A DNA stretch of 64,000 nucleotides from Clostridia bacterium (lineage in GTDB: Bacteria; Bacillota; Clostridia; TANB77; CAG-508), in the NCBI GenBank assembly GCA_017511265.1, contig JAFWKV010000001.1, positions 64,553-128,552 of the forward strand. The letters run 5' to 3'. Numbering within the stretch: the stretch's first letter is position 1; each line of letters opens with the position of its first letter. The translations under genes were made by a program, and so were the position numbers. The notes beneath the pieces were generated by a model, which worked only from the letters and a program-made list of their open reading frames with translations, was not told the DNA's origin and did not search any database. Of this stretch, positions 29,827 to 62,425 are shown piece by piece.

Positions 29827-30828
29827 TTAGTTTATTTTAAATGCTAAAAAAGCAATGAATGGTAAATGAAATAACACAATTTCTTTGCACATTTTTTTTA
29901 TTAGATTTTTTCCACCTAAAAGTTTAAAATACCTAATAAAGTGTATATTCATAATTCTTGTTTTTGAAATCATTTCATAATAAGCTATTAATTGTTTGCA
30001 AAGCAACTTGTCCTCGTTATTTTCTGCGTAGTCAAAGCACATTTTAGCTGCATCTAGATAGCAATTCTCAATTGCCCATTTTCTATATTTTCTAAAAGTA
30101 TCATAATTATTACCATACTTTTCTTTCCATCTTGCCAAATTTTGATTTAAACTTCTACCTCCAAAAACATTAGAGGTATGAAGTCTATAATCAAATAACT
30201 CATCATAAATATAATCAATACCATTCAATTCATTCGCAATAAATCCAGCTAACCAATCATGAGCTATAACGTCTGTTTTGAATGGAATCATTTTTTCTTT
30301 TACTTCTTTTGTAATTATTTGCGAACAACCTATTCCTGCATATCTTGATATAGCAAGCTTACTTTTTCCCTTTATAAGTGGTATATTCTTATGCTTAAAG
30401 TAATCTGTGCATATTACATTTCCATTTTCGTCAATTTGCCTACAATTAACATATACTAAACTACTATTTGTTTCTTTTATTTTTATTAAACTTTTTTCTA
30501 CCTTGTCATTGTGCCATACATCATCATGGTCACAAAACATTATATAATCTGCGGTTGATTGTTTTAAAAGAAATTCAAAATTACTATTGAATCCAATATT
30601 TTTTTCTTGCATAAAAATAATTACTCTGTCATCTTTTTCTTCATATTCTTTTAAAACTTGTCCCACATTTTTTTCAGTTGATGCATCATCACTAATGTAA
30701 ATTTTTATATTTTTGTGTGTCTGATTAAGTAAGCTATCAATTTGCTCTCGCAAAAAATTCTCATTTGAATTATAAGTTGCAAGCAAAATATCAACTAAAT
30801 CGTCATTCATACACTTTCTTTCCCTCAT
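29827..30828 (-). CDS. GT2 glycosyltransferase (rhamnosyltransferase-like family)
   Basis: VDILLATYNSNENFLREQIDSLLNQT...ISDDAST...CDHDDVW. The true start may be ATG 30810 (MNDDL). Confidence 0.8.
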   Translation of the reverse strand: MRERKCMNDDLVDILLATYNSNENFLREQIDSLLNQTHKNIKIYISDDASTEKNVGQVLKEYEEKDDRVIIFMQEKNIGFNSNFEFLLKQSTADYIMFCDHDDVWHNDKVEKSLIKIKETNSSLVYVNCRQIDENGNVICTDYFKHKNIPLIKGKSKLAISRYAGIGCSQIITKEVKEKMIPFKTDVIAHDWLAGFIANELNGIDYIYDELFDYRLHTSNVFGGRSLNQNLARWKEKYGNNYDTFRKYRKWAIENCYLDAAKMCFDYAENNEDKLLCKQLIAYYEMISKTRIMNIHFIRYFKLLGGKNLIKKMCKEIVLFHLPFIAFLAFKIN

Positions 30829-30840
30829 TTTTTAATTTTC

Positions 30841-31003
30841 TTTAGATGTTGATATATAAATATATAAATACGAAAATCTTTGTGTGTCGCAAGCTACGAA
30901 CTAAAAGTACTAGTCTGTAGCTTGCTCCAATCGCACTCGTTTCACTCGTTTGGTCGCTTACGCAGATTTTCTTTATTTATATATTTATATATCAACATCT
31001 AAA
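30841..31003. repeat. Hairpin element HP-A1 (family A): 30-bp perfect arms plus 101-nt conserved core
   Basis: Arms 30841-30870 and 30972-31003 are exact reverse complements. Inner helix GAAAATCT/AGATTTTC. Core 30871-30971 is the reverse complement of the HP-A2 core (about 90% identical by eye). Confidence 0.95.
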
Positions 31004-31020
31004 ACAATATCTAAAAAATT

Positions 31021-32080: not shown

Positions 32081-32320
32081 TATGTAGATAGTTGTTACAG
32101 GAAAGGTTAAAGTTAGATAAATGCGTTCAGATGCCAATATGTATAAATAAAGAAAATCTGCGTAAGCGACCAAACGAGCAAAGCGAGTGCGATTGGAGCA
32201 AGCTACATACTAGTATTTTTATTTGGAGCTTGCGACACACAAAGATTTTCGTATTTATACATATTGGCATCTGAACGCATTTATCTAACTTTAACCTTTC
32301 CTGTAACAACTATCTACATA
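32081..32320. repeat. Hairpin element HP-A2 (family A): 69-bp perfect arms plus conserved core
   Basis: Arms 32081-32149 and 32252-32320 are exact reverse complements. Core is 32150-32251. The right arm contains the last codons and stop of uppP (32310-32320). Confidence 0.95.
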
Positions 32321-33133: not shown

Positions 33134-33424
33134 GGGCGTGTCAATGGGGACGGGTTTAATTGACACACTGATGATTTTTGGGTTGGTGTGAAAAAGTATC
33201 ACTTGAATAGCACTCTTATTGTTAAAAAATGAAGACCGCGTAGGCGGAGCGAAGCGTAGTCGGCTGGAGCTTTCGTTTCATTAATACATTTCAATGAAAA
33301 AAAGCGACAACAAGGTCGTAATGTTTAACAATAAGAATGATACTCTAGTTGATGCTTTTTCACCCCAACCCAAAAATCATCATCAGTGTGTCATTTAAGC
33401 CCGTCCCCATTGACACACGTCCCC
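33134..33424. repeat. Hairpin element HP-B1 (family B): imperfect ~100-nt arms plus conserved core
   Basis: Arms contain inverted copies of the 31-nt motif TGTGTCAATTAAGCCCGTCCCCATTGACACA (33137-33167 reversed, 33387-33417). Core 33234-33317 is about 90% identical to 52641-52726. The right arm encodes the last 12 codons of dpaA. Confidence 0.9.
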
Positions 33425-36961: not shown

Positions 36962-37158
36962 TTATTACAATTCACAGCTTTTTATATTAATATGTCCTGC
37001 CACGTGGTGAATACATAAAATTTTTTTCAAAACCTACGTCTTTGCCTTCGGCAAAAACATAGCTGGGGTCTTCCTACCGGTTTTGATTTAAAAAAATTTT
37101 ATTGTATTAACCACGGTCGCGGACTTTAAGTTAAATTGGCTGTGAATTGTAACAATTA
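36959..37158. repeat. Hairpin element HP-C1 (family C), degenerate arms
   Basis: Outer arms 36959-36978 and 37139-37158 pair with one A.C mismatch. Inner arms are imperfect. Apex has a TTTGCC-TTCG-GGCAAA hairpin, then AAAACATAGCTGGGGTCTTCCTA (37054-37076), identical to 56088-56110. The left arm starts at the sigK stop codon. Confidence 0.85.
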
Positions 37159-37178
37159 ATTTTTATTATCTAAAGTCA

Positions 37179-37245: not shown

Positions 37246-38577
37246 ATGCAAATTGTAACATTAATCATACTTGTAGCAATCAATGCCTTTTTTGCAGCAT
37301 CAGAAATGGCATTTGTAACACTAAATGATGCAAAAATTGCCTCACTGGCAAAAGAAGGAAACAAAAAAGCAAAAAAAATTCAAAAAATGTTAAATAAACC
37401 TAGTAAATTTTTAGCAACAATTCAAATAGGAATAACTCTTGCAGGATTTTTATCAAGTGCCTTTGCAGCAGACACATTTGTTAGTGTTCTAGCACCTGTT
37501 TTACAAAAAAGTATGCCATTTTTCAGCATAGAAATATGGCAAGGAATTTCACTAGTACTTATCACTATTTTGCTTTCATTTTTCACACTTATCTTTGGCG
37601 AATTAGTGCCAAAAAGAATAGCTATGAAATTTTCAGAAAAGGTTGCATTTTTTGCTGTAGGACCAATTCATTTTGTTTCTGTCATTACTGCACCTTTTGT
37701 AGCATTTTTAACAGCATCAACAAACTTCATTTCTAAATTATTTGGTATTAGCGAAACAGATGAAGAAACAGTTACTGAAGAAGAAATAAGAATGATGGTC
37801 AATCAAGGTGGAGAAAATGGAGCAATAGATGATAGTGAACAAGAAATGATAAATAATGTGTTTGAATTCAATGACAAAGAAGTTTCTGAAATAATGATTT
37901 ATAGAACTGAAATTTTTGCAGTTGATGGAGACACTACAGTAGCAGAATTTGAAAAAATTATTGAAAAAGAAAATTATAGATATAGTAGAATCCCTGTATA
38001 TGATAAAACTATTGATAATATGCAAGGCGTTGTATATTTAAAAGATATTCTAAAGGCAAAAGATAATAAAAATGATAGCAGTACAAGAATCAAAAAAATT
38101 ACTAGAAAAATTTTATTCTTCCCAGAATCTAAATTTATTAATGATGCATTTAAAGAAATGCAAGTAAATAAAATTCAAATGGCTGTTGTTCTAGATGAAT
38201 ATGGTGGAACTACTGGTATTGTAACAATGGAAGATATTCTTGAAGAACTCGTTGGCGATATTTATGATGAATATGATAAGGTTGAATTTAAATATGAAAA
38301 ATTAGATGATAATACTTTTAGACTTGATGGTTCTATGCCAATATTTGATGTAAATAAAATAATGGAAATAGAACTTCCTGAAGGTGATTATGATACTTTA
38401 TCTGGATTTATTATAAATGAATTAGATAGAATTCCTGAAGACAATGAGCGTCCAACTGTTGAAACACCACAAGCTGTATTTAAAGTTACAAAAATTCAAA
38501 ATAGAAAAATTGAACGCGTTAAGGCTTGTAGAACTAAAACTTTAGAAGGAAAAAATGAATCTGTCGATGAAGGCTAA
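37246..38577 (+). CDS. CNNM/TlyC-family membrane protein (DUF21, CBS pair, CorC_HlyC domains)
   Basis: N-terminal 4-TM DUF21 (GELVPKRIA), a CBS pair, and a C-terminal TGIVTMEDILEELVGDIYDEYD transporter-associated domain. The last 9 codons lie in the HP-D arm. Confidence 0.85.
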   Translation: MQIVTLIILVAINAFFAASEMAFVTLNDAKIASLAKEGNKKAKKIQKMLNKPSKFLATIQIGITLAGFLSSAFAADTFVSVLAPVLQKSMPFFSIEIWQGISLVLITILLSFFTLIFGELVPKRIAMKFSEKVAFFAVGPIHFVSVITAPFVAFLTASTNFISKLFGISETDEETVTEEEIRMMVNQGGENGAIDDSEQEMINNVFEFNDKEVSEIMIYRTEIFAVDGDTTVAEFEKIIEKENYRYSRIPVYDKTIDNMQGVVYLKDILKAKDNKNDSSTRIKKITRKILFFPESKFINDAFKEMQVNKIQMAVVLDEYGGTTGIVTMEDILEELVGDIYDEYDKVEFKYEKLDDNTFRLDGSMPIFDVNKIMEIELPEGDYDTLSGFIINELDRIPEDNERPTVETPQAVFKVTKIQNRKIERVKACRTKTLEGKNESVDEG

Positions 38578-38822
38578 GCTTTTTGATGGTTTGGCTAGAG
38601 CAGATGATTAGTTAAATTATTGAAATTTCGAATGTGCAGTGGAGCAATTGTACAAAATATTAAAGAGAAGTCAAAAAGGGTCCTGTCTTCGGGTATAGTT
38701 TTGACTTCTCTTTTAGATTTTGTAAATTGTGTAGCAAGCCGAGAAATGTAAATAATTTAACTAATCATCTGCTCTAGCCAAACCATCAAAAAGCTTAGCC
38801 TTCATCGACAGATTCATTTTTT
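38550..38822. repeat. Hairpin element HP-D: 71-bp perfect outer arms, imperfect inner stem, GC-rich apical loop
   Basis: 38550-38620 is the exact reverse complement of 38752-38822. The inner stem includes AAAGAGAAGTCAAAA/TTTTGACTTCTCTTT around the loop AGGGTCCTGTCTTCGGGTAT (about 38677-38696). The arms cover the stops of both convergent genes. Confidence 0.95.
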
Positions 38823-40043
38823 TCTTCTAATTATCCAATCTTTCTCACACTTTATAGGTAAATGCATAAATACCTTTTGTCCTTGTCTTCCGGGATTTAC
38901 AGTATCAATTTCTTCTTGTGTTTCAATATCCCATAGTCTATCAATTACAAATTTATATGGCTCTATCTTACTTGGAATAATAATTTCAAGCATATCTCCC
39001 ACTTGTAATCTATTACGTATTTCTATTACAGATTTATCATCATTATACTCTACTACTTTTCCTCCAAATTGATATTCTGCATTATACTGTTTTCCTGCAT
39101 ATTCTTGTATGTCTTTGTTCTCTCTATCATTGAAATAAAATGTAGTTAATCCTCTTGTTTTAACCTTTTCTATTTCTTTTAAATATTTAGTATAATCATA
39201 ATTTTCATGGTCTTTTTCATAATCGTCTATTGCATTTCTATATACATTTATTATGCTTGCTAAATAATATTCTGTTTTTAATCTTCCTTCAATTTTTAAG
39301 CTATCTACACCCATCTCAATTATTTCAGGAAGTTCTTTTATTAGGCATAAATCTTTTGAAGAAAAAATGCTTGTACCATATTCATTTGTTTCAATTGGCA
39401 TTAACTCCCCTGGATTGTTTGCTTCTTCTGCATATAAATTATATGACCATCTACAGCTTTGTGCACAATCTCCTAAATTTGCACTTCTGCCTGTCATAAA
39501 ATCACTTAAAAAGCATCTGCCAGAAAAAGCAAAGCAAATTGCGCCATGAATGAATATTTCAATTTCCATATCTTTGCTTTTGTTTTCTACAATGTACTTT
39601 AGCTGTTCTTTATTCATTTCTCTTGCCATTATCATTCTTTTCGCACCTTGCTTATGCCAGAAGTTGCAAGTATGTAGACTAACAAGATTTGCCTGTGTAC
39701 TCATGTGTATGTCAATACTTGGAGCATACTGTTTTACAATTTCTACTACTCCACCATCTGCTACAATAACTGCATCTGCTTTTAATTCTTCTAGCATTTT
39801 AACTTGCTCAATTATTTCTTCATATTTGTCGTCCCAAGCATAAATGTTTAATGTAACATATACTTTTTTACCTATACTATGTGCATATTTTATTGTGTTT
39901 GCTAAATCTTCGTTTTCCATATCTGCTCTGGTTCTTAATGATAATGAAGATGTACCACAATAGACTGCATCTGCTCCATACAAAAAGGCTATTTTTGCTT
40001 TTTCGAATGAACCGGCTGGTGCTAACAATTCAATTTTTTTCAT
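38814..40043 (-). CDS. Peptidase U32 family protein (YrrO/TrhP-like)
   Basis: ELLAPAGSFEKAKIAFLYGADAVYCG, EIFIHGAICFAFSGRCFLS: U32 hallmarks. Start at ATG 40043, preceded by AAGGAGG. Sits next to a YrrM-like methyltransferase, as in B. subtilis yrrMNO. Confidence 0.85.
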   Translation of the reverse strand: MKKIELLAPAGSFEKAKIAFLYGADAVYCGTSSLSLRTRADMENEDLANTIKYAHSIGKKVYVTLNIYAWDDKYEEIIEQVKMLEELKADAVIVADGGVVEIVKQYAPSIDIHMSTQANLVSLHTCNFWHKQGAKRMIMAREMNKEQLKYIVENKSKDMEIEIFIHGAICFAFSGRCFLSDFMTGRSANLGDCAQSCRWSYNLYAEEANNPGELMPIETNEYGTSIFSSKDLCLIKELPEIIEMGVDSLKIEGRLKTEYYLASIINVYRNAIDDYEKDHENYDYTKYLKEIEKVKTRGLTTFYFNDRENKDIQEYAGKQYNAEYQFGGKVVEYNDDKSVIEIRNRLQVGDMLEIIIPSKIEPYKFVIDRLWDIETQEEIDTVNPGRQGQKVFMHLPIKCEKDWIIRRKK

Positions 40044-40059
40044 CTTTTTCCTCCTTTGA

Positions 40060-40128
40060 GTTGTCAATTAGGTCGGGATGTGTCAATTAAGCCCGTCCCC
40101 ATTGACACACCCCGACCTAATTGACAAC
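40060..40128. repeat. REP-like hairpin HP-R1 (28-bp stem, 13-nt loop) containing the 31-nt motif
   Basis: GTTGTCAATTAGGTCGGGATGTGTCAAT / ATTGACACACCCCGACCTAATTGACAAC with one A.C mismatch. Motif copy at 40079-40109. Fills the gap between the methyltransferase stop (40130) and the U32 RBS (40050-40056). Confidence 0.9.
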
Positions 40129-40129
40129 T

Positions 40130-47258: not shown

Positions 47259-47279
47259 TTTCAGTTCTCCTTTTTTAGT

Positions 47280-47421
47280 GATGTTTTTTGGGACGTGTTG
47301 TGTCAATGGGGACGGGCTTAATTGACACGCTTGATGCCTTAGTAGAAATTTTTAAGTCACCAAAGCATTAGTGTGTCAATTAAGCCCGTCCCCATTGACA
47401 CAACCCATTCCCAAAATCATC
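47280..47421. repeat. REPIN-like doublet HP-R2: two inverted copies of the 31-nt motif forming a ~65-bp imperfect hairpin
   Basis: Motif copies at 47299-47328 (reversed) and 47372-47402. The flanks GATG..TTTTGGGA.. and ..TCCCAAAATCATC also pair. The element occupies the whole sufS-sufU spacer and includes the first bases of the sufS stop codon. Confidence 0.9.
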
Positions 47422-48643
47422 ACTTCTTTATAAATTTTTCAAACATACTATAGGCTTTTTTTAAAGCCTCAACTAGCCTATCCACGTCCTCTTTATTATT
47501 ATAGATATAAAAGCTTGCTCTACATGTTGCAGGAAGTTTTAAAAATCTAATTAATGGTTGTGCACAATGGTCTCCCGCACGCACTGCTATGCCTTGACTA
47601 TCTAGAATTGTTGCTAAATCATGTGGATGTACTCCTTTTATATTAAAAGAAATTACTCCACAATGATTATCTTCATTTGGTGTATAGTAAGTTTCTACAA
47701 AATCAAGTTTTGCAAGTTCTTGTTTAGCATAGCCTACTACTTCTTCCTCTATTTTTGCAATTGTATCATACCCAATACTTTCAATATAATCAATTGCAGC
47801 TCCTAAACCTACAACGCCTTCTACATTTTGAGTTCCTGCTTCAAATTTATTTGGAAGTGGTGCAAAAGTAGTTTTATCTTCATACACATATTCTATCATA
47901 TCTCCACCCATTAGAAATGGATTCATATCATTTAATAATCTCTTTTTACCATACAACACGCCAATTCCAAGAGGGCCAAGCATTTTATGTCCTGAAAATA
48001 CTAAAAAGTCTGCATCTAAGTCTTGGACATCCACCTTCATGTGAGGAATACTTTGTGATGCGTCAACAACAACTATAGCACCTTTTTTATGAGCATATTT
48101 AATTATCTCTTTTACATTATTTATAGTTCCTAACACATTAGAAACATGTGTAATGCCAACAATTTTAGTATTGTCTGTTATTTTTGCTTTTATCTCTTCT
48201 TCAGATAATTCGTATTCATCATTTATATACATGTATTCTAGTTTGCTACCTGTTTTTTTTGTTACAAATTGCCAGGGTACTAAATTTGAATGATGCTCCA
48301 TTATAGAAATTATCACAGAATCATCTTCACCTAAATTTTCTAATCCATACGAATATGCAATTAAATTTAAAGCTTCACTTGCATTTTTAGTAAAAATAAT
48401 TTGTTCCGATTTTTCAGCATTTATAAACTTAGCAATCTTTTTTCTTGTATTTTCATATACATCAGTTGCTTCTATACTTAATTCATACGCTCCTCTATGA
48501 GGATTAGCATTTTTTGTTTTATAAAAATTATCAATTGCATCTATAACGCACTGAGGTCTTTGTGAAGTAGCCCCACTATCTAAGTAAGCTATGTCGATTT
48601 TTTCAAAGATTGGAAAATCTTTTTTTATTTTATCTACATTCAT
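47420..48643 (-). CDS. sufS: Cysteine desulfurase SufS
   Basis: AYLDSGATSQRP, SGHKMLGPLGIGVLYG (PLP lysine), RAGDHCAQP. Confidence 0.9.
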   Translation of the reverse strand: MNVDKIKKDFPIFEKIDIAYLDSGATSQRPQCVIDAIDNFYKTKNANPHRGAYELSIEATDVYENTRKKIAKFINAEKSEQIIFTKNASEALNLIAYSYGLENLGEDDSVIISIMEHHSNLVPWQFVTKKTGSKLEYMYINDEYELSEEEIKAKITDNTKIVGITHVSNVLGTINNVKEIIKYAHKKGAIVVVDASQSIPHMKVDVQDLDADFLVFSGHKMLGPLGIGVLYGKKRLLNDMNPFLMGGDMIEYVYEDKTTFAPLPNKFEAGTQNVEGVVGLGAAIDYIESIGYDTIAKIEEEVVGYAKQELAKLDFVETYYTPNEDNHCGVISFNIKGVHPHDLATILDSQGIAVRAGDHCAQPLIRFLKLPATCRASFYIYNNKEDVDRLVEALKKAYSMFEKFIKK

Positions 48644-52464: not shown

Positions 52465-52482
52465 TGTTAGCTTACCCTAACA
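52465..52482. promoter_or_regulatory. Candidate DtxR-type operator upstream of the repressor-suf operon
   Basis: TGTTAGCTTACCCTAACA: GTTAG-N6-CTAAC inverted repeat resembling the core of the DtxR box (TTAGGTTAGCCTAACCTAA), 17-34 nt upstream of the repressor start. Confidence 0.4.
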
Positions 52483-52538
52483 TTATAAAGGTTATACTTC
52501 AATTTGTCAAGAGGAATACAACTATTTTGGACGGGGGA

Positions 52539-52827
52539 TGCTGTCTTTTGGGACGGGGCAAAAAAACATCACCTGCTGTCTTTTGGGACGGGGTTAAAAA
52601 ACATCATCATCTCCATTAGCTATATTTATTAAAAAATGTAGACCGCGTAGGCGGAGCGAAGCGTAGTCGTCTGGAGCTTTCTCTTCACTAATATAAATTT
52701 CAATGAAAGAAAGCGACAACAAGGTCGTAATGTTTAATAAATATAACCAATGGAGATGATGATGTTTTTTAACCCCGTCCCAAAAGACAGCAGGTGATGT
52801 TTTTTTGCCCCGTCCCAAAAGACAGCA
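52539..52827. repeat. Hairpin element HP-B2 (family B): ~92-bp near-perfect arms plus conserved core
   Basis: Arms pair from 52539/52827 inward with only two mismatches (52618.52748, 52620.52746). Each arm carries two copies of CTGTCTTTTGGGACGGGG (52541-52558, 52576-52593; reversed at 52773-52790, 52808-52825). Core is 52641-52726. Confidence 0.95.
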
Positions 52828-52834
52828 AAATGCA

Positions 52835-53728
52835 TCATCTTTCATTGTATTTTTCTAATTCAGTTTGAAATTCTTCAAGTAATCTGGCAAGTCTACTTTG
52901 TTGTTCTATATCTTCAGCTCTTTCCTGTAAACTTGTAATTCTTCTTATATAAGCATCAGCATTTTGCATTATTTCTTCTCTATTCCTTTGTCTATAAAAG
53001 TCAATAGCTTCTCTTGATGATGCAAATCTGCTATCTCCACTTTGCCATACAAGTTCAGGCTTATCTTCAACATAGCCACGTTTAAATGCACAAGTTCTAG
53101 AAATAAGGTTTCTTCTTTCTATTTCATCTAATGTTTCTAGCATTCTAACATATGAGTCATCATGATATCTAGGTTGAACAATACGAGGTGTTAAGCCATT
53201 TTCTCTATAGTACTGTTCACGCTCATAACACGATAATAAGCTTTCATATCTATCTACCGCTAGAATCGCCACATCAATATCATATCCTCCATTTTTTTGA
53301 TAATCTAGTATTGACAAATATCCATCCTTGCTTGCAAAAGTACCTTCTTGAACAACATTTACCTTTAAATCTACTCCTTTTCTCCTTAAGTGTTCATCTA
53401 ATGCAGGTCTAATAAATCTTTGCAAAATTTGAAAGCTGTCATCTGGATAATGTCTCATTATCTCTGCATAATGTTCATGATAAGGTCCAATATTATCTGG
53501 ATTAAATTCTACAAATGATGCTAATCTACCAGTATTTTGTCCTTGATTAATAACATATGTTTTTAACCCAGTTTTACCAGCTCCTGGCTGAGCAACAACA
53601 AATACTGAATATGGATGTTTACTTGGCTTACATGTCATAAACACACCCATTTCTGCTCTACTTAAGCTACTAATATATTCTTCTTCTGTTAAATCGTATT
53701 CTGAGCCTATTGGCATTTCTTCTTTCAT
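52835..53728 (-). CDS. Zeta-toxin-family kinase
   Basis: Walker A VVAQPGAGKTG, FNPDNIGPYHEHY, VVQEGTF, helical C-terminal tail. Preferred start is ATG 53728, preceded by GGAGG; the ORF track starts at 53740. Visibly more G+C than its neighbours. Confidence 0.75.
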   Translation of the reverse strand: MKEEMPIGSEYDLTEEEYISSLSRAEMGVFMTCKPSKHPYSVFVVAQPGAGKTGLKTYVINQGQNTGRLASFVEFNPDNIGPYHEHYAEIMRHYPDDSFQILQRFIRPALDEHLRRKGVDLKVNVVQEGTFASKDGYLSILDYQKNGGYDIDVAILAVDRYESLLSCYEREQYYRENGLTPRIVQPRYHDDSYVRMLETLDEIERRNLISRTCAFKRGYVEDKPELVWQSGDSRFASSREAIDFYRQRNREEIMQNADAYIRRITSLQERAEDIEQQSRLARLLEEFQTELEKYNER

Positions 53729-53739
53729 ACAATCCTCCA

Positions 53740-53943
53740 TTATTTATTTTTGACTTCTTCCAAATATACTGTTAGAACTTTTTCTATTATCTGTTCATTA
53801 TTATTGTATATTTCATTTTTTTCATCATATAATATTTGCATATTTTCTTTGAATTTATTAAAATCTTTTTCTTGATTATTTTTTATTGAATTTGCAATCT
53901 TTAAATTAATTATATATAATGCTAGTTCTTTTCTATTATTCAT
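53740..53943 (-). CDS. Small helical protein, candidate epsilon-like antitoxin
   Basis: 67-aa K/E/N-rich ORF whose stop abuts or overlaps the zeta start (TAATG). No sequence similarity recognised; call rests on position only. Confidence 0.4.
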   Translation of the reverse strand: MNNRKELALYIINLKIANSIKNNQEKDFNKFKENMQILYDEKNEIYNNNEQIIEKVLTVYLEEVKNK

Positions 53944-53966
53944 ATTTCCTCCTAATAATCTCTTAA

Positions 53967-54428
53967 TTAGTCTATTAAAGTTGTTTCTTTTAATAATAGT
54001 ATATTTTCACAATTTTCGTCTATTTTTCTCAAAATTGATGGATCATCATCAATAAATATAATTTGCGAATCTTTTTGTTCTAAACTTGTAATAAATTCAT
54101 ATTTTAAATCAATTGCATTTTTTTCAAAATTATATTGCTCTCTAGATAATATATTTCTATTTTCTTTTTTAAAAAAAGGTGCAAACTCATCTAGCCATTT
54201 ATTTTTTTGTTCAATTCCCTCTGACATTCTTGTAACTGATAAAATATGTAATTTAACATTTGGCATTTTAGAAATTTCTTCTAACTTAGAAAGAATACTA
54301 ACTAGAGGTCTCTTTTTGTCATATCTTGCTGGTACCCCAACTTCATAGTCTGCAATAACTCCATCCATATCAACATACATGTCTACATTTTTATTGTCTA
54401 AATCTTTTAAAATATCAAAAATAATCAT
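53967..54428 (-). CDS. HAD-superfamily 5'(3')-deoxyribonucleotidase-like protein (NT5C family)
   Basis: Motif I VDMDGVIADY near the N-terminus, late IFIDDD motif, about 150 aa. RBS AGGAGA 7 nt upstream. Confidence 0.6.
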   Translation of the reverse strand: MIIFDILKDLDNKNVDMYVDMDGVIADYEVGVPARYDKKRPLVSILSKLEEISKMPNVKLHILSVTRMSEGIEQKNKWLDEFAPFFKKENRNILSREQYNFEKNAIDLKYEFITSLEQKDSQIIFIDDDPSILRKIDENCENILLLKETTLID

Positions 54429-54528: not shown

Positions 54529-54555
54529 ATTGTGTTGGTGGAGGTGAATTACTAT

Positions 54556-56002
54556 ATGTCATTAGATAGTAACACATTTAGAGAACGAAATAAACAACAT
54601 CCTATTAGAAAAAACGCATTAGAAAATTTTAGTAAAGTTACAAATTTTTCTGTAAGCAAAGATGTAAGAAGATATATGTATCAAGTTATGGCAACAATTG
54701 GCTTAGAGCTTGAGCGAAAATTCCCAAATACAGTACATTTTGATGATAACCGGTTTTAAAATGTTCGGTCGTATAAAATCTGAAAAGAGTACATCTGAAA
54801 AAAAAGCATCGAATATACAAGATTATGATGATAAATTTCAAACTGCTATAGAAGAGCAAAAAGACATACCTACAGAAGTAAGACCTATTTTTGATTTTTA
54901 TGCTTACAAATTAGTATGTCCTGAAATTACAAACTCTCATGATGTAATAAATACTGTAATTTCAGATATTTTAACTGATATTGGAAAACATTCACCCAAA
55001 TATCTATCATACATAACTGAATTAAAAAGTAGTATTGATATATCGCGTTTTCCTTCATTAGAATTTATTACTAACAATTTTTCAGATAAATATCCTAATT
55101 TAAAAGATAAGTTAGCAGCTGTAATGTATACTCAAAATGAGGCAAATAAAACTCAAGAATTTTTGGATAATGCTCCTAAAGATGTATCAAATCTTACTTA
55201 TTCAGAATATTATTCAAAAATAATTGAATGTTATCAACTTTTAATTAATCTTTCGTATGATGATTCTATTGAAGAATATACTCGTATTGCAAAATTAGCT
55301 AAGCAGTCTAGAGAGCAATTACATCAAATAATTGAACAAGGTAAAAGTCATCAAAAAATTGATAAACAGTTCCATAAAGAATACGGAGATACTTTAGAAA
55401 AACTATTAAAACATGTTTCAAAAAAGCGAACAAACAGGCTTGACCTAACAATTTGTGATTTGATGGTCTTCGATGTTTTAACTACTTGTGAATCATTAAA
55501 AAAGTTAGGAGTGTCTTATTCAAAGGATCCTACTAGAACTAAGAAAAAGAGGAAGCAAAATGGCTACATAGCAAATTTTTATAGTTTAGATATGCCAAAT
55601 GGATTAACATCTGAAATTCAATTACAATCACTTTATAGATATGAATATGGTGAGTATGGACCTGCAGCACATCATAAAATGGAAAATGGATTAAAGAAAA
55701 GAACTTTATTTAAAAGACCTAAAAACAAAAGTAAATATGCAGATTGGGCTGAGAAGCAATTTAAAGCATTACCTAGATATTTTACCTATAGAGGTAATGG
55801 TTATGTTGAAGTACATAGCACTCTTCAAAATTTTAGAAAATATTATGACTGCAAAGATAAAAGTGAGGTTCAAACATATGTTGAATTTATTGCACAGCAT
55901 GATGTTGATTTATTAGATAGCCATCTTATACAATTTTCTTTGGATGATACTTCTCCTTTAAATAAATCAACAAAAGCAAATAATTCCGCAGAAGAACGCT
56001 AA
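54556..56002 (+). CDS. Atypical RelA/SpoT-homologue (RSH) nucleotidyltransferase-like protein; needs a +1 frame change at 54754-54759
   Basis: ATG 54556 follows GGAGGTGA. FGRIKSEKSTSEKK, FDFYAYKLVC, NGYIANFYSL...SEIQLQS...AAHHKM follow the order of RelA_SpoT synthetase motifs but are degenerate, and about 190 aa are inserted between them. The N-terminal 67 codons end at TAA 54757-54759. Skipping one T restores ...DDNRFKMFGRIKS. Confidence 0.55.
54754..54759 (+). other. TTT_TAA site joining the two RSH reading frames
   Basis: CGG TTT TAA AAT G in frame 0. Re-pairing Phe-tRNA on the overlapping TTT (+1) gives AAA ATG TTC GGT CGT = KMFGR. Confidence 0.6.
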
Positions 56003-56207
56003 GAACAATTTTTATAAATAAATAATAACTCATATACTATATAAATATAGAATCGCATGAATGTTGAATTATAAATATATTTGGAACAAAACATAGCTGG
56101 GGTCTTCCTATTGGTCTTGTTCCGACAATATATTTATAATTCAACATTTATGCGATTCTATATTTATATAGTATATGAGTTATTATTTATTTATAAAAAT
56201 TGTTCTT
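56001..56207. repeat. Hairpin element HP-C2 (family C): ~81-bp arms with a single G.T mismatch
   Basis: 56001-56081 pairs with 56127-56207 (mismatch 56059.56149). Apex GGAACAA/TTGTTCC encloses AAAACATAGCTGGGGTCTTCCTA (56088-56110). The right arm contains the last 7 sense codons and stop of the SEDS gene. The left arm starts at the last base of the RSH stop codon. Confidence 0.95.
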
Positions 56208-57292
56208 TGTCGTTTGCTGCTTATATTAAGTAATAGTCCTATACATACAAAGCTTGTTATTAATGAGCTTCCTCCATAACTAATAAACAAAAGCGGTATA
56301 CCTGTAATTGGAAGCAATCCAATTGTCATACCTATATTTTCAGCCATATGGAAGAAGAAAATTCCAGCAATGCCTATAGCAATATATGATCCCAAATTAT
56401 CATGTGCAGTTTTTGCTACATAAATTGCCTTTGTTATCAGAAATACATATAAAATAACAATTAAAGCAGCCATAATAAATCCTAATTCTTCTCCAATTGC
56501 CGCAAAAATGAAGTCTGTAGTTTTTGGATGTAAATAGCCTAATTGAGTTTGATTTCCTTGTAATAACCCCATTCCTAAAAGTTCACCTGCACCAACTGCT
56601 AATTTAGATTGAATTATATTATAGCCTGCTCCTCTTGGATCTAGCTCTGGATTTAAATATACATTTATTCTATTTTTTGCATAATCTGGTAAAACGAAAT
56701 TATATATTAGCGGTACAGCGACTGCAACAAGTACTGCTACAGTAATTATATATTTTTTATCTATTCCTGCTGTAAATAATATACATAATAATGCAATAAT
56801 GTATGCCATAGCAGTTCCATTGTCTGGTTCTTTAACAACTAGTCCTATCGGAATTCCAGCTATTAATAATATAAGTAATAACCATCCAAATTTATTTATT
56901 CTACTTATTCCTCTTTCTTGTATTTTCGAGATAGTAAAACTAAGAACTAATATTAAAAAAATTTTTGTAAATTCTGCTGGCTGAAATGTAAATGAACCTA
57001 AGTCAAACCAGCTTCTTGCTCCATTTACTGGCGTGGTAAATAAAACTCCCACCAGTAATGCACAAAAAAATACATACCATATCGGTGAAACTTTAGCTAT
57101 TACTTCATAATCAATTATTCCTACTATTAGCATTGCTACTACACTTATTCCAAGCCATATTGCTTGTTTTTTTAATTCTGAAAATTCTGTATTATACGAA
57201 ACTGTATATAATGCTATCATTCCAATTATAGTCAATGCTACTGCACAAATTAAAATTGCCCATTCTGTATTTTTTAGTCGTTGTCTTCCCAT
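56183..57292 (-). CDS. SEDS-family peptidoglycan glycosyltransferase (FtsW/RodA/SpoVE)
   Basis: 10-TM protein with GARSWFDLG, FQPAEFTKI, PDNGTA, LPITGIPLLFISYGGSS. Start at ATG 57292, preceded by AAAGGAGAAAAA. Confidence 0.85.
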   Translation of the reverse strand: MGRQRLKNTEWAILICAVALTIIGMIALYTVSYNTEFSELKKQAIWLGISVVAMLIVGIIDYEVIAKVSPIWYVFFCALLVGVLFTTPVNGARSWFDLGSFTFQPAEFTKIFLILVLSFTISKIQERGISRINKFGWLLLILLIAGIPIGLVVKEPDNGTAMAYIIALLCILFTAGIDKKYIITVAVLVAVAVPLIYNFVLPDYAKNRINVYLNPELDPRGAGYNIIQSKLAVGAGELLGMGLLQGNQTQLGYLHPKTTDFIFAAIGEELGFIMAALIVILYVFLITKAIYVAKTAHDNLGSYIAIGIAGIFFFHMAENIGMTIGLLPITGIPLLFISYGGSSLITSFVCIGLLLNISSKRQRTIFINK

Positions 57293-62212: not shown

Positions 62213-62235
62213 ATTCCCACTTCCTTAGCAAAAAT

Positions 62236-62425
62236 TATACCCCACTGGGCCGTAAGACTAGTTGAATTTTTAAGGACCTGCTCCTAAAAACAGGTGGGTG
62301 CCTACCTAAATATTCCTGGGCTTCTTACTGTACTGTAAGCTTGCACGCCATATTTGAGAGTTCGGCCCCTCTTAATGTGTGTTGGTTCTAAAAATTCCGT
62401 CTTTACAAACTTTGTAGGGTATATA
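62236..62425 (+). ncRNA. Candidate ~190-nt structured RNA, 6S-RNA-like long irregular hairpin (strand tentative)
   Basis: GC-enriched intergenic block. Paired ends TATACCC/GGGTATA, GTAAGAC/GTCTTTAC, AATTTTTA/TAAAAATT and GGACC/GGTTC enclose a central region with small hairpins (AGGTGG-GTGC-CTACCT; GAGAG-N8-CTCTT; CTTAC-N6-GTAAG). G.T pairs favour the plus strand. No sequence-level match to 6S can be asserted from memory. Confidence 0.35.

What the first reader, a model, noticed from the sequence alone, without database searches (positions are those of the whole stretch)
52539..52827. HP-B2: ~92-bp near-perfect stem built from a duplicated 18-nt GGGACGGGG motif, bounding the accessory islet
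Each arm contains CTGTCTTTTGGGACGGGG twice, and a fifth partial copy (TTTTGGACGGGGG, 52525-52537) lies just outside. The same TTTTGGG(G)ACG signature flanks the 31-nt REP-like motif at 33415-33424 and 47287-47296, linking the families. The only two arm mismatches (A.C and C.A on the plus strand) become U.G and G.U on the minus strand, which is the transcribed strand here. The element lies 8 nt after the zeta-toxin stop and marks the left edge of the inserted zeta/RSH islet. HP-C2 marks the right edge.
Basis: partly seen in the sequence, partly recalled or inferred. Interest (0 to 1): 0.65.

Follow-up and report, generated by a model that had tools for sequence, protein, structure and literature searches.

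The report
Composite palindromic repeat, not islet marker
The 289-bp hairpin is real, but it is one copy of a multi-copy family of nested palindromic repeats in an uncultured gut Clostridia bacterium, and a sister lineage carries the same toxin islet without it, so it does not mark the islet.

Summary
Arms 52539-52633 and 52733-52827 are 95 nt with 2 mismatches, the loop is 99 nt, the 18-mer occurs 4 times, and a fifth partial copy lies just outside.

The "islet boundary" reading fails on three counts:
- A sister lineage (about 92% nt identity) has the same zeta islet and hairpin HP-C2, but only one simple 40-nt hairpin where this element sits.
- The 430-aa "RSH" gene is ancestral to the locus.
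- Sibling elements lie between housekeeping genes.

The element is a composite. A conserved core of about 120 nt (second copy at 33216-33334; distant homologues at 32138-32264 and 30862-30985) sits at the centre of mirrored arrays of an 18-nt module, [C/G]TGTC-WWTK-GGGACGG. The 31-nt REP-like motif is the same module. K-mer depth in metagenomes puts the parts at about 50-100 times flank depth.

At this site and at the 33138-33416 site, the composite starts right after the GGGACGG loop motif of an ancestral single hairpin. No transposase, target duplication, Rfam family or canonical terminator was found.

Related elements in the window have high-copy cores inside long locus-specific inverted repeats. 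Those repeats co-evolve, and the cores flip between samples. The closest known kinds are REP/BIME/REPIN and MITEs; this is a new variant.

The parts
52539..52827 (.). Element A: the whole 289-bp composite palindromic element, which is the finding
   Evidence: Other copies of its parts break away at 52537-52539 and at 52827 (loose ends).
52539..52633 (+). Left arm (DtxR side): units 52539-52571 and 52574-52606, plus the inner arm 52607-52633
   Evidence: Depth is about 75x flank for the unit and about 8-19x for the inner arm.
52733..52827 (-). Right arm (zeta side): mirror copy, with units at 52760-52792 and 52795-52827
   Evidence: 2 mismatches.
52623..52744 (+). A/F-type core: conserved and strand-asymmetric, with a GC-rich segment AGACCGCGTAGGCGGAGCGAAGCGTAGTCG, a central hairpin, and short AT-rich terminal inverted repeats
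   Evidence: About 92% identical to 33222-33328. Covariance model R1 scores 125 bits. Depth of the GC-rich part is about 83x flank.
52525..52537 (+). The 'fifth partial copy': a remnant of the loop of an ancestral single hairpin. The sister lineage has AGGGACGGAGA at the matching place.
   Evidence: Other copies of the unit do not carry it (loose ends).
52482..52510 (-). Promoter of the DtxR-suf operon, TTGACA-17-TATAAT, a 12/12 match. It lies 28 nt beyond the element and is conserved in relatives that lack the element.
33138..33416 (.). Element F: sibling copy with the same core (33216-33334) and different arm modules (31-nt REP plus a 33-nt U unit). The sister lineage has one hairpin, GTGATACTTT-GGGGACGGAGG-AAAAAGTATCAC, in a 46-nt spacer.
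32081..32320 (.). Element D: a distant homologue of the core (32138-32264) inside 69-nt, 100% complementary, single-copy arms. The core is found in both orientations in different samples.
30828..31016 (.). Element D2: a second D-type core (30862-30985, opposite orientation) inside unrelated 43-nt arms. The core is inverted in the sister lineage.
47277..47424 (.). Element E: an inverted doublet of the 31-nt REP module with half-modules outside it, between SufS and SufU. It is absent from relatives, which have 62-70-nt spacers.
40059..40129 (.). Element G: one REP module (40080-40109, about 20-28x depth) nested in a local 21-nt inverted repeat
55988..56220 (.).

Best explanation
Element A is a non-coding, non-autonomous, multi-copy composite repeat. 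It is not a component of the toxin islet.

Shown:
- It consists of a conserved core of about 120 nt at the centre of two mirrored arrays of an 18-nt module, [C/G]TGTC-WWTK-GGGACGG. The same module forms the genome's 31-nt REP-like hairpins.
- Its parts occur at tens of copies per genome.
- At this site, and at the site of sibling F, a sister lineage has only one simple hairpin whose loop carries GGGACGG. In the window the composite begins 1-3 nt after that motif.

Inferred:
1. Modules and cores spread in trans by a site-specific reaction that inserts them 3' of the G-rich loop motif of an existing hairpin. This gives nested, BIME-like clusters with no direct target duplication. The enzyme is unidentified; a single-strand HUH/Y1-type transposase is the best guess.
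2. The array on one side (here the DtxR side, which continues into the ancestral remnant) was then copied in inverted orientation to the other side. The two arms are kept near-identical by polymerase template switching or by recombination between the arms. The same process builds and maintains the long locus-specific arms around cores elsewhere in the window and allows the cores to flip.
3. Locally, the element puts a hairpin of about 111 bp at the 3' end of the zeta transcript, 28 nt before the -35 box of the DtxR-suf promoter. At most it acts as a 3' stabiliser, an RNase III substrate or a read-through barrier. That would be a side effect, not its reason for being there.
For: Multi-copy status. 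Flank depth is 23-27 (run X1). The unit reaches about 1800, the GC-rich core about 2000 and the inner arm about 200-460, with many alternative joints and loose ends. Many short-read contigs break inside the element.

Family. The core of A and the core of F are about 92% identical, but the arms are only about 65% identical, and each copy is 95-98% self-complementary. The D and D2 cores are homologous, with compensatory changes in the central helix.

Gain at an ancestral hairpin. The L021 alignment breaks exactly at 52513-52832, and the remnant matches the loop of the L021 hairpin. L041 shows the same for F.

Module-after-G-motif rule. It holds at A, F, E, G, L016 and the L031 palindrome.

Mirror copying and homogenisation.
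- The CA/TT unit order is mirrored.
- The arm of B contains conserved RodA codons, and their inverted copy follows the stop of the other gene.
- The arms of D are 63-66% identical between lineages, against 90% for the core and 90% for BacA coding sequence, yet they are 97-100% complementary within each lineage.
- At the G site the sister lineage has TAATTGACAACT once, where the window has it on both sides in inverted orientation.
- Template switching is known to homogenise and expand inverted repeats (PMC5941160; abstract of PMC13100816).

Core inversion. D flips between samples. D2 is inverted between lineages.

No conserved ORF lies in the element. There is no direct target duplication. None of 57 window proteins scanned is a transposase.
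Against: - No mobilising enzyme or autonomous parent was found, so the transposition step is pure inference.
- Gain in the window lineage cannot be told from loss in the sister lineage. The flanks differ by more than a clean insertion: about 25 nt of the ancestral 3' stem is replaced.
- Depth ratios come from metagenome unitigs. Perfect inverted repeats double the k-mer depth, and co-resident relatives could inflate the counts.
- Every part of A is multi-copy, so A could move as one unit rather than being built in place.
- The isolated 33-nt unit folds weakly (z = -1.1), so calling it a hairpin module rests on its homology to the 29-nt REP.
- No expression data exist.
Confidence: 0.62

Rival explanations
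1. Classical MITE. The whole 289 bp is a deletion derivative of a DDE insertion sequence. Its 95-nt terminal inverted repeats carry repeated transposase-binding sites, as in IS21, Tn7 or Mu ends, and it moves as a unit by cut-and-paste.
For: The termini read TG...CA. Each end holds two direct subterminal repeats. Other copies share the same outer boundaries. All parts, including the inner arm, are multi-copy.
Against: No direct target duplication at A, F, E or any other element. Copies with the same core have different arm modules. Related cores sit in single-copy, locus-specific arms, which terminal repeats carried by an element cannot explain. No transposase in 64 kb plus 10 kb.
Confidence: 0.15
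2. A true REP/REPIN-RAYT system. The modules are REPs, the inverted doublets are REPINs, and a single-copy RAYT (Y1 HUH transposase) elsewhere in the genome replicates them.
For: Imperfect palindromes of 29-33 nt, extragenic, tens of copies, arranged as inverted doublets and mosaic clusters, with no target duplication. Insertion 3' of a short conserved motif is typical of IS200/IS605-type chemistry (established knowledge; PMC3333891).
Against: There is no terminal GTAG tag. CGTC is present but lies inside the loop, not at an unpaired end as tagged REPs are defined (PMC3733652). That survey does not mention Firmicutes among the phyla with tagged REPs. No RAYT gene was seen. The 120-nt cores and the locus-specific arms are not REPIN features.
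Confidence: 0.2
3. One reading: a functional boundary or terminator element of the zeta islet, paired with HP-C2.
For: It starts 8 nt after the zeta stop and forms a very stable hairpin on the transcribed strand.
Against: The sister lineage has the islet and HP-C2 without it. The 430-aa gene is ancestral. Family members sit among housekeeping genes. There is no U-tract. In L021 a canonical terminator-like hairpin with a T-run already does that job.
Confidence: 0.04
4. The conserved core is a small structured RNA gene or ribozyme, and the long arms are a processing stem, like rRNA or pri-miRNA stems. Its multi-copy status would reflect function rather than selfish spread.
For: The core is strand-asymmetric and more conserved than its arms. 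Its central helix shows compensatory changes between the A/F and D types. Arm complementarity persists while arm sequence diverges.
Against: No Rfam family matches beyond sub-threshold generic hairpin hits. The D and D2 cores occur in both orientations relative to host transcription. Arm mismatches show no G.U strand bias. The covariation rests on only two independent lineages. No RNA data exist.
Confidence: 0.1

Closest known systems
REP / BIME / REPIN elements of Proteobacteria, mobilised by RAYT (PMC3116915, PMC2817692, PMC3333891)
   Same: Short imperfect palindromes, extragenic and often just after stop codons, at tens to hundreds of copies. They form inverted doublets that fold into long hairpins and mosaic clusters, and they make no target duplication.
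   Different: No GTAG tag and no RAYT seen. The host is an AT-rich uncultured Clostridia bacterium. The conserved motif (GGGACGG) lies in the loop. Clusters are nested and mirrored into near-perfect palindromes of 190-235 bp and carry a 120-nt core.
CGTC-tagged REPs (Di Nocera et al. 2013, PMC3733652)
   Same: They contain CGTC (the complement of GACG) and have no dedicated transposase found next to them.
   Different: In that family CGTC is an unpaired terminal tag, stems are 8-9 bp and loops 4-5 nt. Here CGTC lies inside an 11-13-nt loop. The phyla reported there are Proteobacteria, Chlorobi, Bacteroidetes, Spirochaetes and Thermotogae.
Bacterial MITEs and modular repeats (Correia/NEMIS, RUP, pneumococcal BOX; review PMC10969869)
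   Same: Small, non-coding, multi-copy, intergenic and hairpin-forming. BOX is modular with a variable number of internal units (my own knowledge).
   Different: No direct target duplication and no parent insertion sequence. Arms differ between copies that share a core. In related elements the arms are host sequence.
Insertion sequences that target REP hairpins (IS1397, ISPpu9 and others; PMC1525189)
   Same: Insertion into an existing palindromic repeat, giving nested structures.
   Different: Here the inserted pieces are themselves tiny non-coding repeats, and the insertion point is defined by a loop motif.
Quasi-palindrome correction and inverted-repeat expansion by template switching (PMC5941160; abstract of PMC13100816)
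   Same: It explains arms that stay perfect while their sequence drifts, and arms that grow into flanking host DNA.
   Different: The described cases are mostly short repeats. Here the arms are 43-116 nt and are seeded systematically at mobile cores.

Membership tests
REP/REPIN-RAYT | Imperfect palindromic unit of 20-40 nt, extragenic, high copy | tested here: met
   The 29-nt REP has an 8-bp stem (z = -4.6 to -5.0). All motif copies that lie inside hairpin elements are intergenic. Depth is 20-75x flank.
REP/REPIN-RAYT | Conserved unpaired terminal tetranucleotide tag, GTAG or CGTC | tested here: not met
   No GTAG at either end of the units. CGTC is inside the loop. Definition taken from PMC3733652.
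REP/REPIN-RAYT | Inverted doublets that fold as one hairpin | tested here: met
   Elements E, F and A. Alternative doublets with other spacers appear in the reads.
REP/REPIN-RAYT | Cognate RAYT (Y1 HUH transposase) gene flanked by the repeats | not testable with these tools
   None among 57 window proteins or in the adjacent 10 kb. The rest of the genome could not be reached.
MITE | Terminal inverted repeats, small size, no ORF, multi-copy | tested here: met
MITE | Direct target-site duplication | tested here: not met
   Only chance matches of 2-4 nt at 8 elements. The single longer match, 6 nt (TATATA), is at the D2 core in AT-rich low-complexity flank.
MITE | Autonomous insertion sequence sharing the ends | not testable with these tools
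   No hit in plasmids, phages, viral contigs, GTDB representative genomes or JGI metagenomes.
Intrinsic terminator | GC-rich stem followed by a U-tract | tested here: not met
   No U-run after the stem on either strand, and the scan finds nothing matching the hairpin. The hairpin in L021 does have an 11-bp stem plus TTTTT.
Inverton (invertible segment) | The segment between the inverted repeats is found in both orientations | tested here: inconclusive
   For A, the window and all three contigs that reach the core have the same orientation, and unitigs cannot resolve 95-nt arms. For D and D2, both orientations are found.
Known RNA family (Rfam 15) | Match at or above the gathering score | tested here: not met
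   Only plant and animal miRNA-precursor models below threshold.

The most novel reading that the evidence does not exclude
This Clostridia lineage may harbour an undescribed kind of mobile DNA. Small structured cores and 18-nt modules would insert site-specifically into hairpin loops, 3' of GGGACGG. They would then provoke an inverted, not direct, duplication of the adjoining DNA. The result would be hundreds of long, co-evolving, invertible palindromes that reach into the 3' ends of genes.
Probability: 0.3. Interest if true: 0.72.

Novelty: new variant of a known kind. Interest (0 to 1): 0.48.

Why it matters
For annotation, hairpins like this should be masked as repeats and not read as islet borders or regulators.

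For biology, REP/MITE-like repeats are poorly described in Clostridia and in uncultured gut bacteria. Short-read MAG assemblies break at them: most contigs here end inside the element.

The window offers a compact natural series in which growth of nested palindromes, concerted evolution of repeat arms and spontaneous inversion can all be read from strain comparisons. The stages seen are a single hairpin, nested modules, a mirrored palindrome, a palindrome with a core, and a flipped core. If the inverted flank duplication is tied to insertion, it would be a new transposition footprint.

Tried and rejected
- GTDB representative genomes scanned with a 20-mer from the core: 5 chance hits, all in GC-rich genomes.
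- JGI metagenomes scanned with a 24-mer from the core: 0 hits.
- Viral contigs scanned with the unit, the REP and the B-core: 0 hits each.
- BLAST of the element against plasmids and phages: no match.
- Rfam at gathering and E-value thresholds: only generic hairpin hits.
- RNA-seq runs: none listed.
- Covariance model of the core: no further copies in about 88 kb of relatives.
- Small ORFs inside A and F: different frames, not conserved.
- G.U strand bias in the arm mismatches: none.
- Direct target duplications: none.
- Whether the mirror copy overwrote the C-terminal tail of CNNM: inconclusive, because that tail varies in all relatives.
- Assembly artefact: rejected, because identical structures occur in independent assemblies.
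- Same-strain contigs around BacA: no presence/absence polymorphism.

Full report
**1. Observation**

The region 52539-52827 is an inverted repeat with 95-nt arms, 2 mismatches and a 99-nt spacer. As minus-strand RNA it folds at -200.6 kcal/mol, z = -30 against shuffles. The 18-mer CTGTCTTTTGGGACGGGG occurs four times, against 0 expected. Each arm is two tandem 33-nt units whose CA/TT difference is mirrored in the other arm. The partial copy at 52525-52537, the gap after the zeta stop, and the G.U-on-minus nature of both mismatches are all correct. The G.U point has no weight, because across all hairpins in the window the mismatches show no strand bias. Independent assemblies carry the identical element.

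**2. Context**

The window is 27.5% GC. It comes from an uncultured Clostridia bacterium of animal (bovine and sheep) gut metagenomes. A short-read MAG, GCA_017511085.1, shares part of it.

Gene order on the minus strand is:
- SufU, SufS, SufD, SufB, SufC and a DtxR-like repressor
- element A
- zeta toxin, a 67-aa ORF and an NT5C-like gene
- a 430-aa gene on the plus strand
- RodA, TruB and HrcA

A perfect sigma-70 promoter for DtxR-suf lies at 52510-52482, 28 nt from the element.

**3. The islet reading fails**

Locus L021 comes from a sister lineage with RodA 99% aa identity and 92% nt identity over 8.6 kb. It has the zeta toxin, the 67-aa gene, the NT5C-like gene, the 418-aa gene and element B. 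Its alignment to the window breaks exactly at 52513-52832. In place of that stretch it has 48 nt containing one hairpin, AAAACTGCCAA-AATTCTCCGTCCCT-ATTGGCAGTTTT, followed by a T-run.

The 430-aa gene is the orthologue of the only gene between RodA and DtxR in more distant relatives. Another relative has two different zeta genes at that locus. The locus is therefore a hot spot for toxin-antitoxin cassettes, and element B lies between two ancestral genes. A and B differ in age and in family.

**4. What the element is**

The window holds at least nine long hairpin elements, all intergenic.

Element F (33138-33416) shares a core of about 110-120 nt with A at about 92% identity. Its arms are built from other units, a 31-nt REP and a 33-nt U unit. 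Those arms align to the units of A at about 65%, while each copy is 95-98% self-complementary.

The cores of D and D2 are distant homologues of the A/F core, with compensatory changes in the central helix. A covariance model finds exactly these four copies in the window and none in about 88 kb of relatives.

The unit of A and the REP are variants of one 18-nt module, [C/G]TGTC-WWTK-GGGACGG. The clearest example is a 235-bp near-perfect palindrome just outside the window, with four modules per arm, 99% complementarity and a 3-nt spacer.

Laying metagenome unitigs on A gives these depths:

| Part | Depth (run X1) |
|---|---|
| Flanks | 23-27 |
| Unit | about 1800 |
| GC-rich core | about 2000 |
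| Inner arm | 200-460 |

Many alternative joints and loose ends appear as well. This means tens of copies, which agrees with 2-7 copies of each part per 64 kb. The caveats are that inverted repeats double k-mer depth and that co-resident relatives could contribute.

No conserved ORF, Rfam family, plasmid hit, phage hit or direct target duplication was found. None of 57 window proteins scanned is a transposase.

**5. How it got there**

At both the A site and the F site, the sister lineage has one simple hairpin whose loop carries GGGACGG. In the window the composite begins 1-3 nt after that motif:
- GGACGGGGGA|TGCTGTC at A
- GGGGACGT|GTGTCAAT at F

The same rule, a new module starting just after a G-rich loop motif, holds at E, G, L016 and the L031 palindrome. 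From this I infer site-specific, self-targeting insertion. That behaviour is typical of single-strand HUH/Y1 systems, but no enzyme was found.

**6. Mirror copying**

Nested insertion alone cannot make both arms fully complementary, G-motif included. Four observations point to an inverted copy of one side being written onto the other:
- In elements B, C and D a high-copy core sits between single-copy arms. B: core at about 115-145 times flank depth. D: core at about 48-140 times. C: a repeated segment at about 10 times.
- The RodA-side arm of B contains the conserved RodA codons RTIFINK*. Their inverted copy follows the stop of the opposite gene.
- The arms of D are only 63-66% identical between the two lineages, while the core and BacA are both 90% identical. 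Within each lineage the arms are 97-100% complementary.
- At the G site the sister lineage has TAATTGACAACT once, where the window has it on both sides in inverted orientation.

Template switching between repeat arms is an established way to homogenise and expand inverted repeats (PMC5941160; abstract of PMC13100816).

The cores also flip. D is inverted in two assemblies from other samples that have identical arms. D2 is inverted between lineages.

For A, the arm on the DtxR side continues into the ancestral remnant, so I take it as the original and the zeta-side arm as the copy. This step is an inference.

**7. Function**

No U-tract follows the stem, and D-type cores occur in both orientations. 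A dedicated terminator or a strand-specific RNA role is therefore unlikely. A hairpin of about 111 bp at the 3' end of the zeta transcript may stabilise it or be cut by RNase III. This is untested, and no RNA runs are available.

**8. Comparison and verdict**

The nearest known kinds are REP/BIME/REPIN elements and MITEs. Defining features of each fail or cannot be tested: no GTAG or terminal CGTC tag, no RAYT seen, no target duplication and no parent insertion sequence (see the membership table; PMC3733652, PMC3116915).

I file it as a new variant of a known kind. The hairpin itself is an ordinary selfish repeat. The way this genome builds, maintains and flips long palindromes around small cores is the part worth following.

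Noticed in passing
window 32081-32320; L026, L028 versus L023, L025: The D core lies between 69-nt perfect arms. It is found in both orientations in assemblies from different samples, with identical arms and BacA flank. This is natural DNA inversion just upstream of a glycosyltransferase gene.
   Followed up: yes
window 30828-31016; L041:3660-3823: The D2 core is inverted in the sister lineage (88% identity when inverted, 57% in the same orientation), while its arms are about 87% conserved. The arms of D differ by about 35% between lineages but stay 97-100% complementary within each.
   Followed up: yes
window 55988-56220 (core 56062-56122): HP-C2 has a core of about 60 nt, GGAACAAAACATAGCTGGGGTCTTCC..., at about 115-145 times flank depth. 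Its arms are single-copy and include the last RodA codons. In L021 the outer part of the distal arm (roughly 20-36 nt) and the middle of the loop differ.
   Followed up: partly
window 36962-37162; L034, L035, L019:802-971: A further hairpin element has a centre, CAAAACC-..-TTTGCC-TTCG-GGCAAA-AACATAGCTGGGGTCTTCCTACC-GGTTTTG, that belongs to the same core family as B. The family recurs in other species and in two JGI contigs, always inside local inverted repeats. The two inner helices differ by paired changes. No Rfam match.
   Followed up: partly
window 38542-38830: Element C has arms that overlap the last 12 codons of the CNNM gene and the last codons of the U32 peptidase gene. The same sequence is read in two frames. 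Only the inner 38617-38755 is repeated, at about 10x. The sister lineage (L040) has an unrelated 248-nt spacer there.
   Followed up: partly
L031:13496-13730 (about 1.7-1.9 kb beyond the window's left end): A 235-bp near-perfect palindrome with 116-nt arms, 99% complementarity and a 3-nt spacer. It is made of four tandem GGGACGG modules per arm and lies between a sulfatase gene and cotJA. A palindrome like this would be expected to be unstable in E. coli.
   Followed up: partly
window 54532-56002: The conserved 430-aa gene is frameshifted near 54750, with its N-terminus in another frame. It is also split in L006 and L021 but intact (479-517 aa) in relatives. It has no Pfam or PDB match. A stretch SEIQLQS..YGEYGPAAHHKME recalls the RelA/SpoT synthetase motif (from memory, not tested).
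   Followed up: partly
window 52466-52481 (minus strand): The palindrome GTTAGGGTAAGCTAAC lies directly after the -10 box of the DtxR-suf promoter and is conserved in all relatives. It is probably the auto-regulatory operator of the DtxR-family repressor.
   Followed up: no
window 52835-54428; L020:4366-7016: The RodA-DtxR interval is a hot spot for zeta-type cassettes. This lineage has zeta, a 67-aa ORF and an NT5C-like gene. Another relative has two unrelated zeta paralogues (23% identity) and lacks the 430-aa gene.
   Followed up: partly
L016:8906-8985 and L016:17676-17735: A relative with RodA 81% identical has long hairpins carrying the same GGGGACGG motif on different stems. One is a nested pair in the SufS-SufU spacer, the site of element E in the window.
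   Followed up: partly
L031:14574-19979: Downstream of cotJA and cotJB, a 127-aa ORF of unknown family and a Mn-catalase (CotJC-like) fragment are separated by about 4.6 kb. That stretch carries an ABC/FtsX gene and a large serine recombinase. It may be an intervening element in a sporulation gene.
   Followed up: no
window 62235-62423 (minus strand): 6S RNA, Rfam RF00013, 74.7 bits.
   Followed up: no
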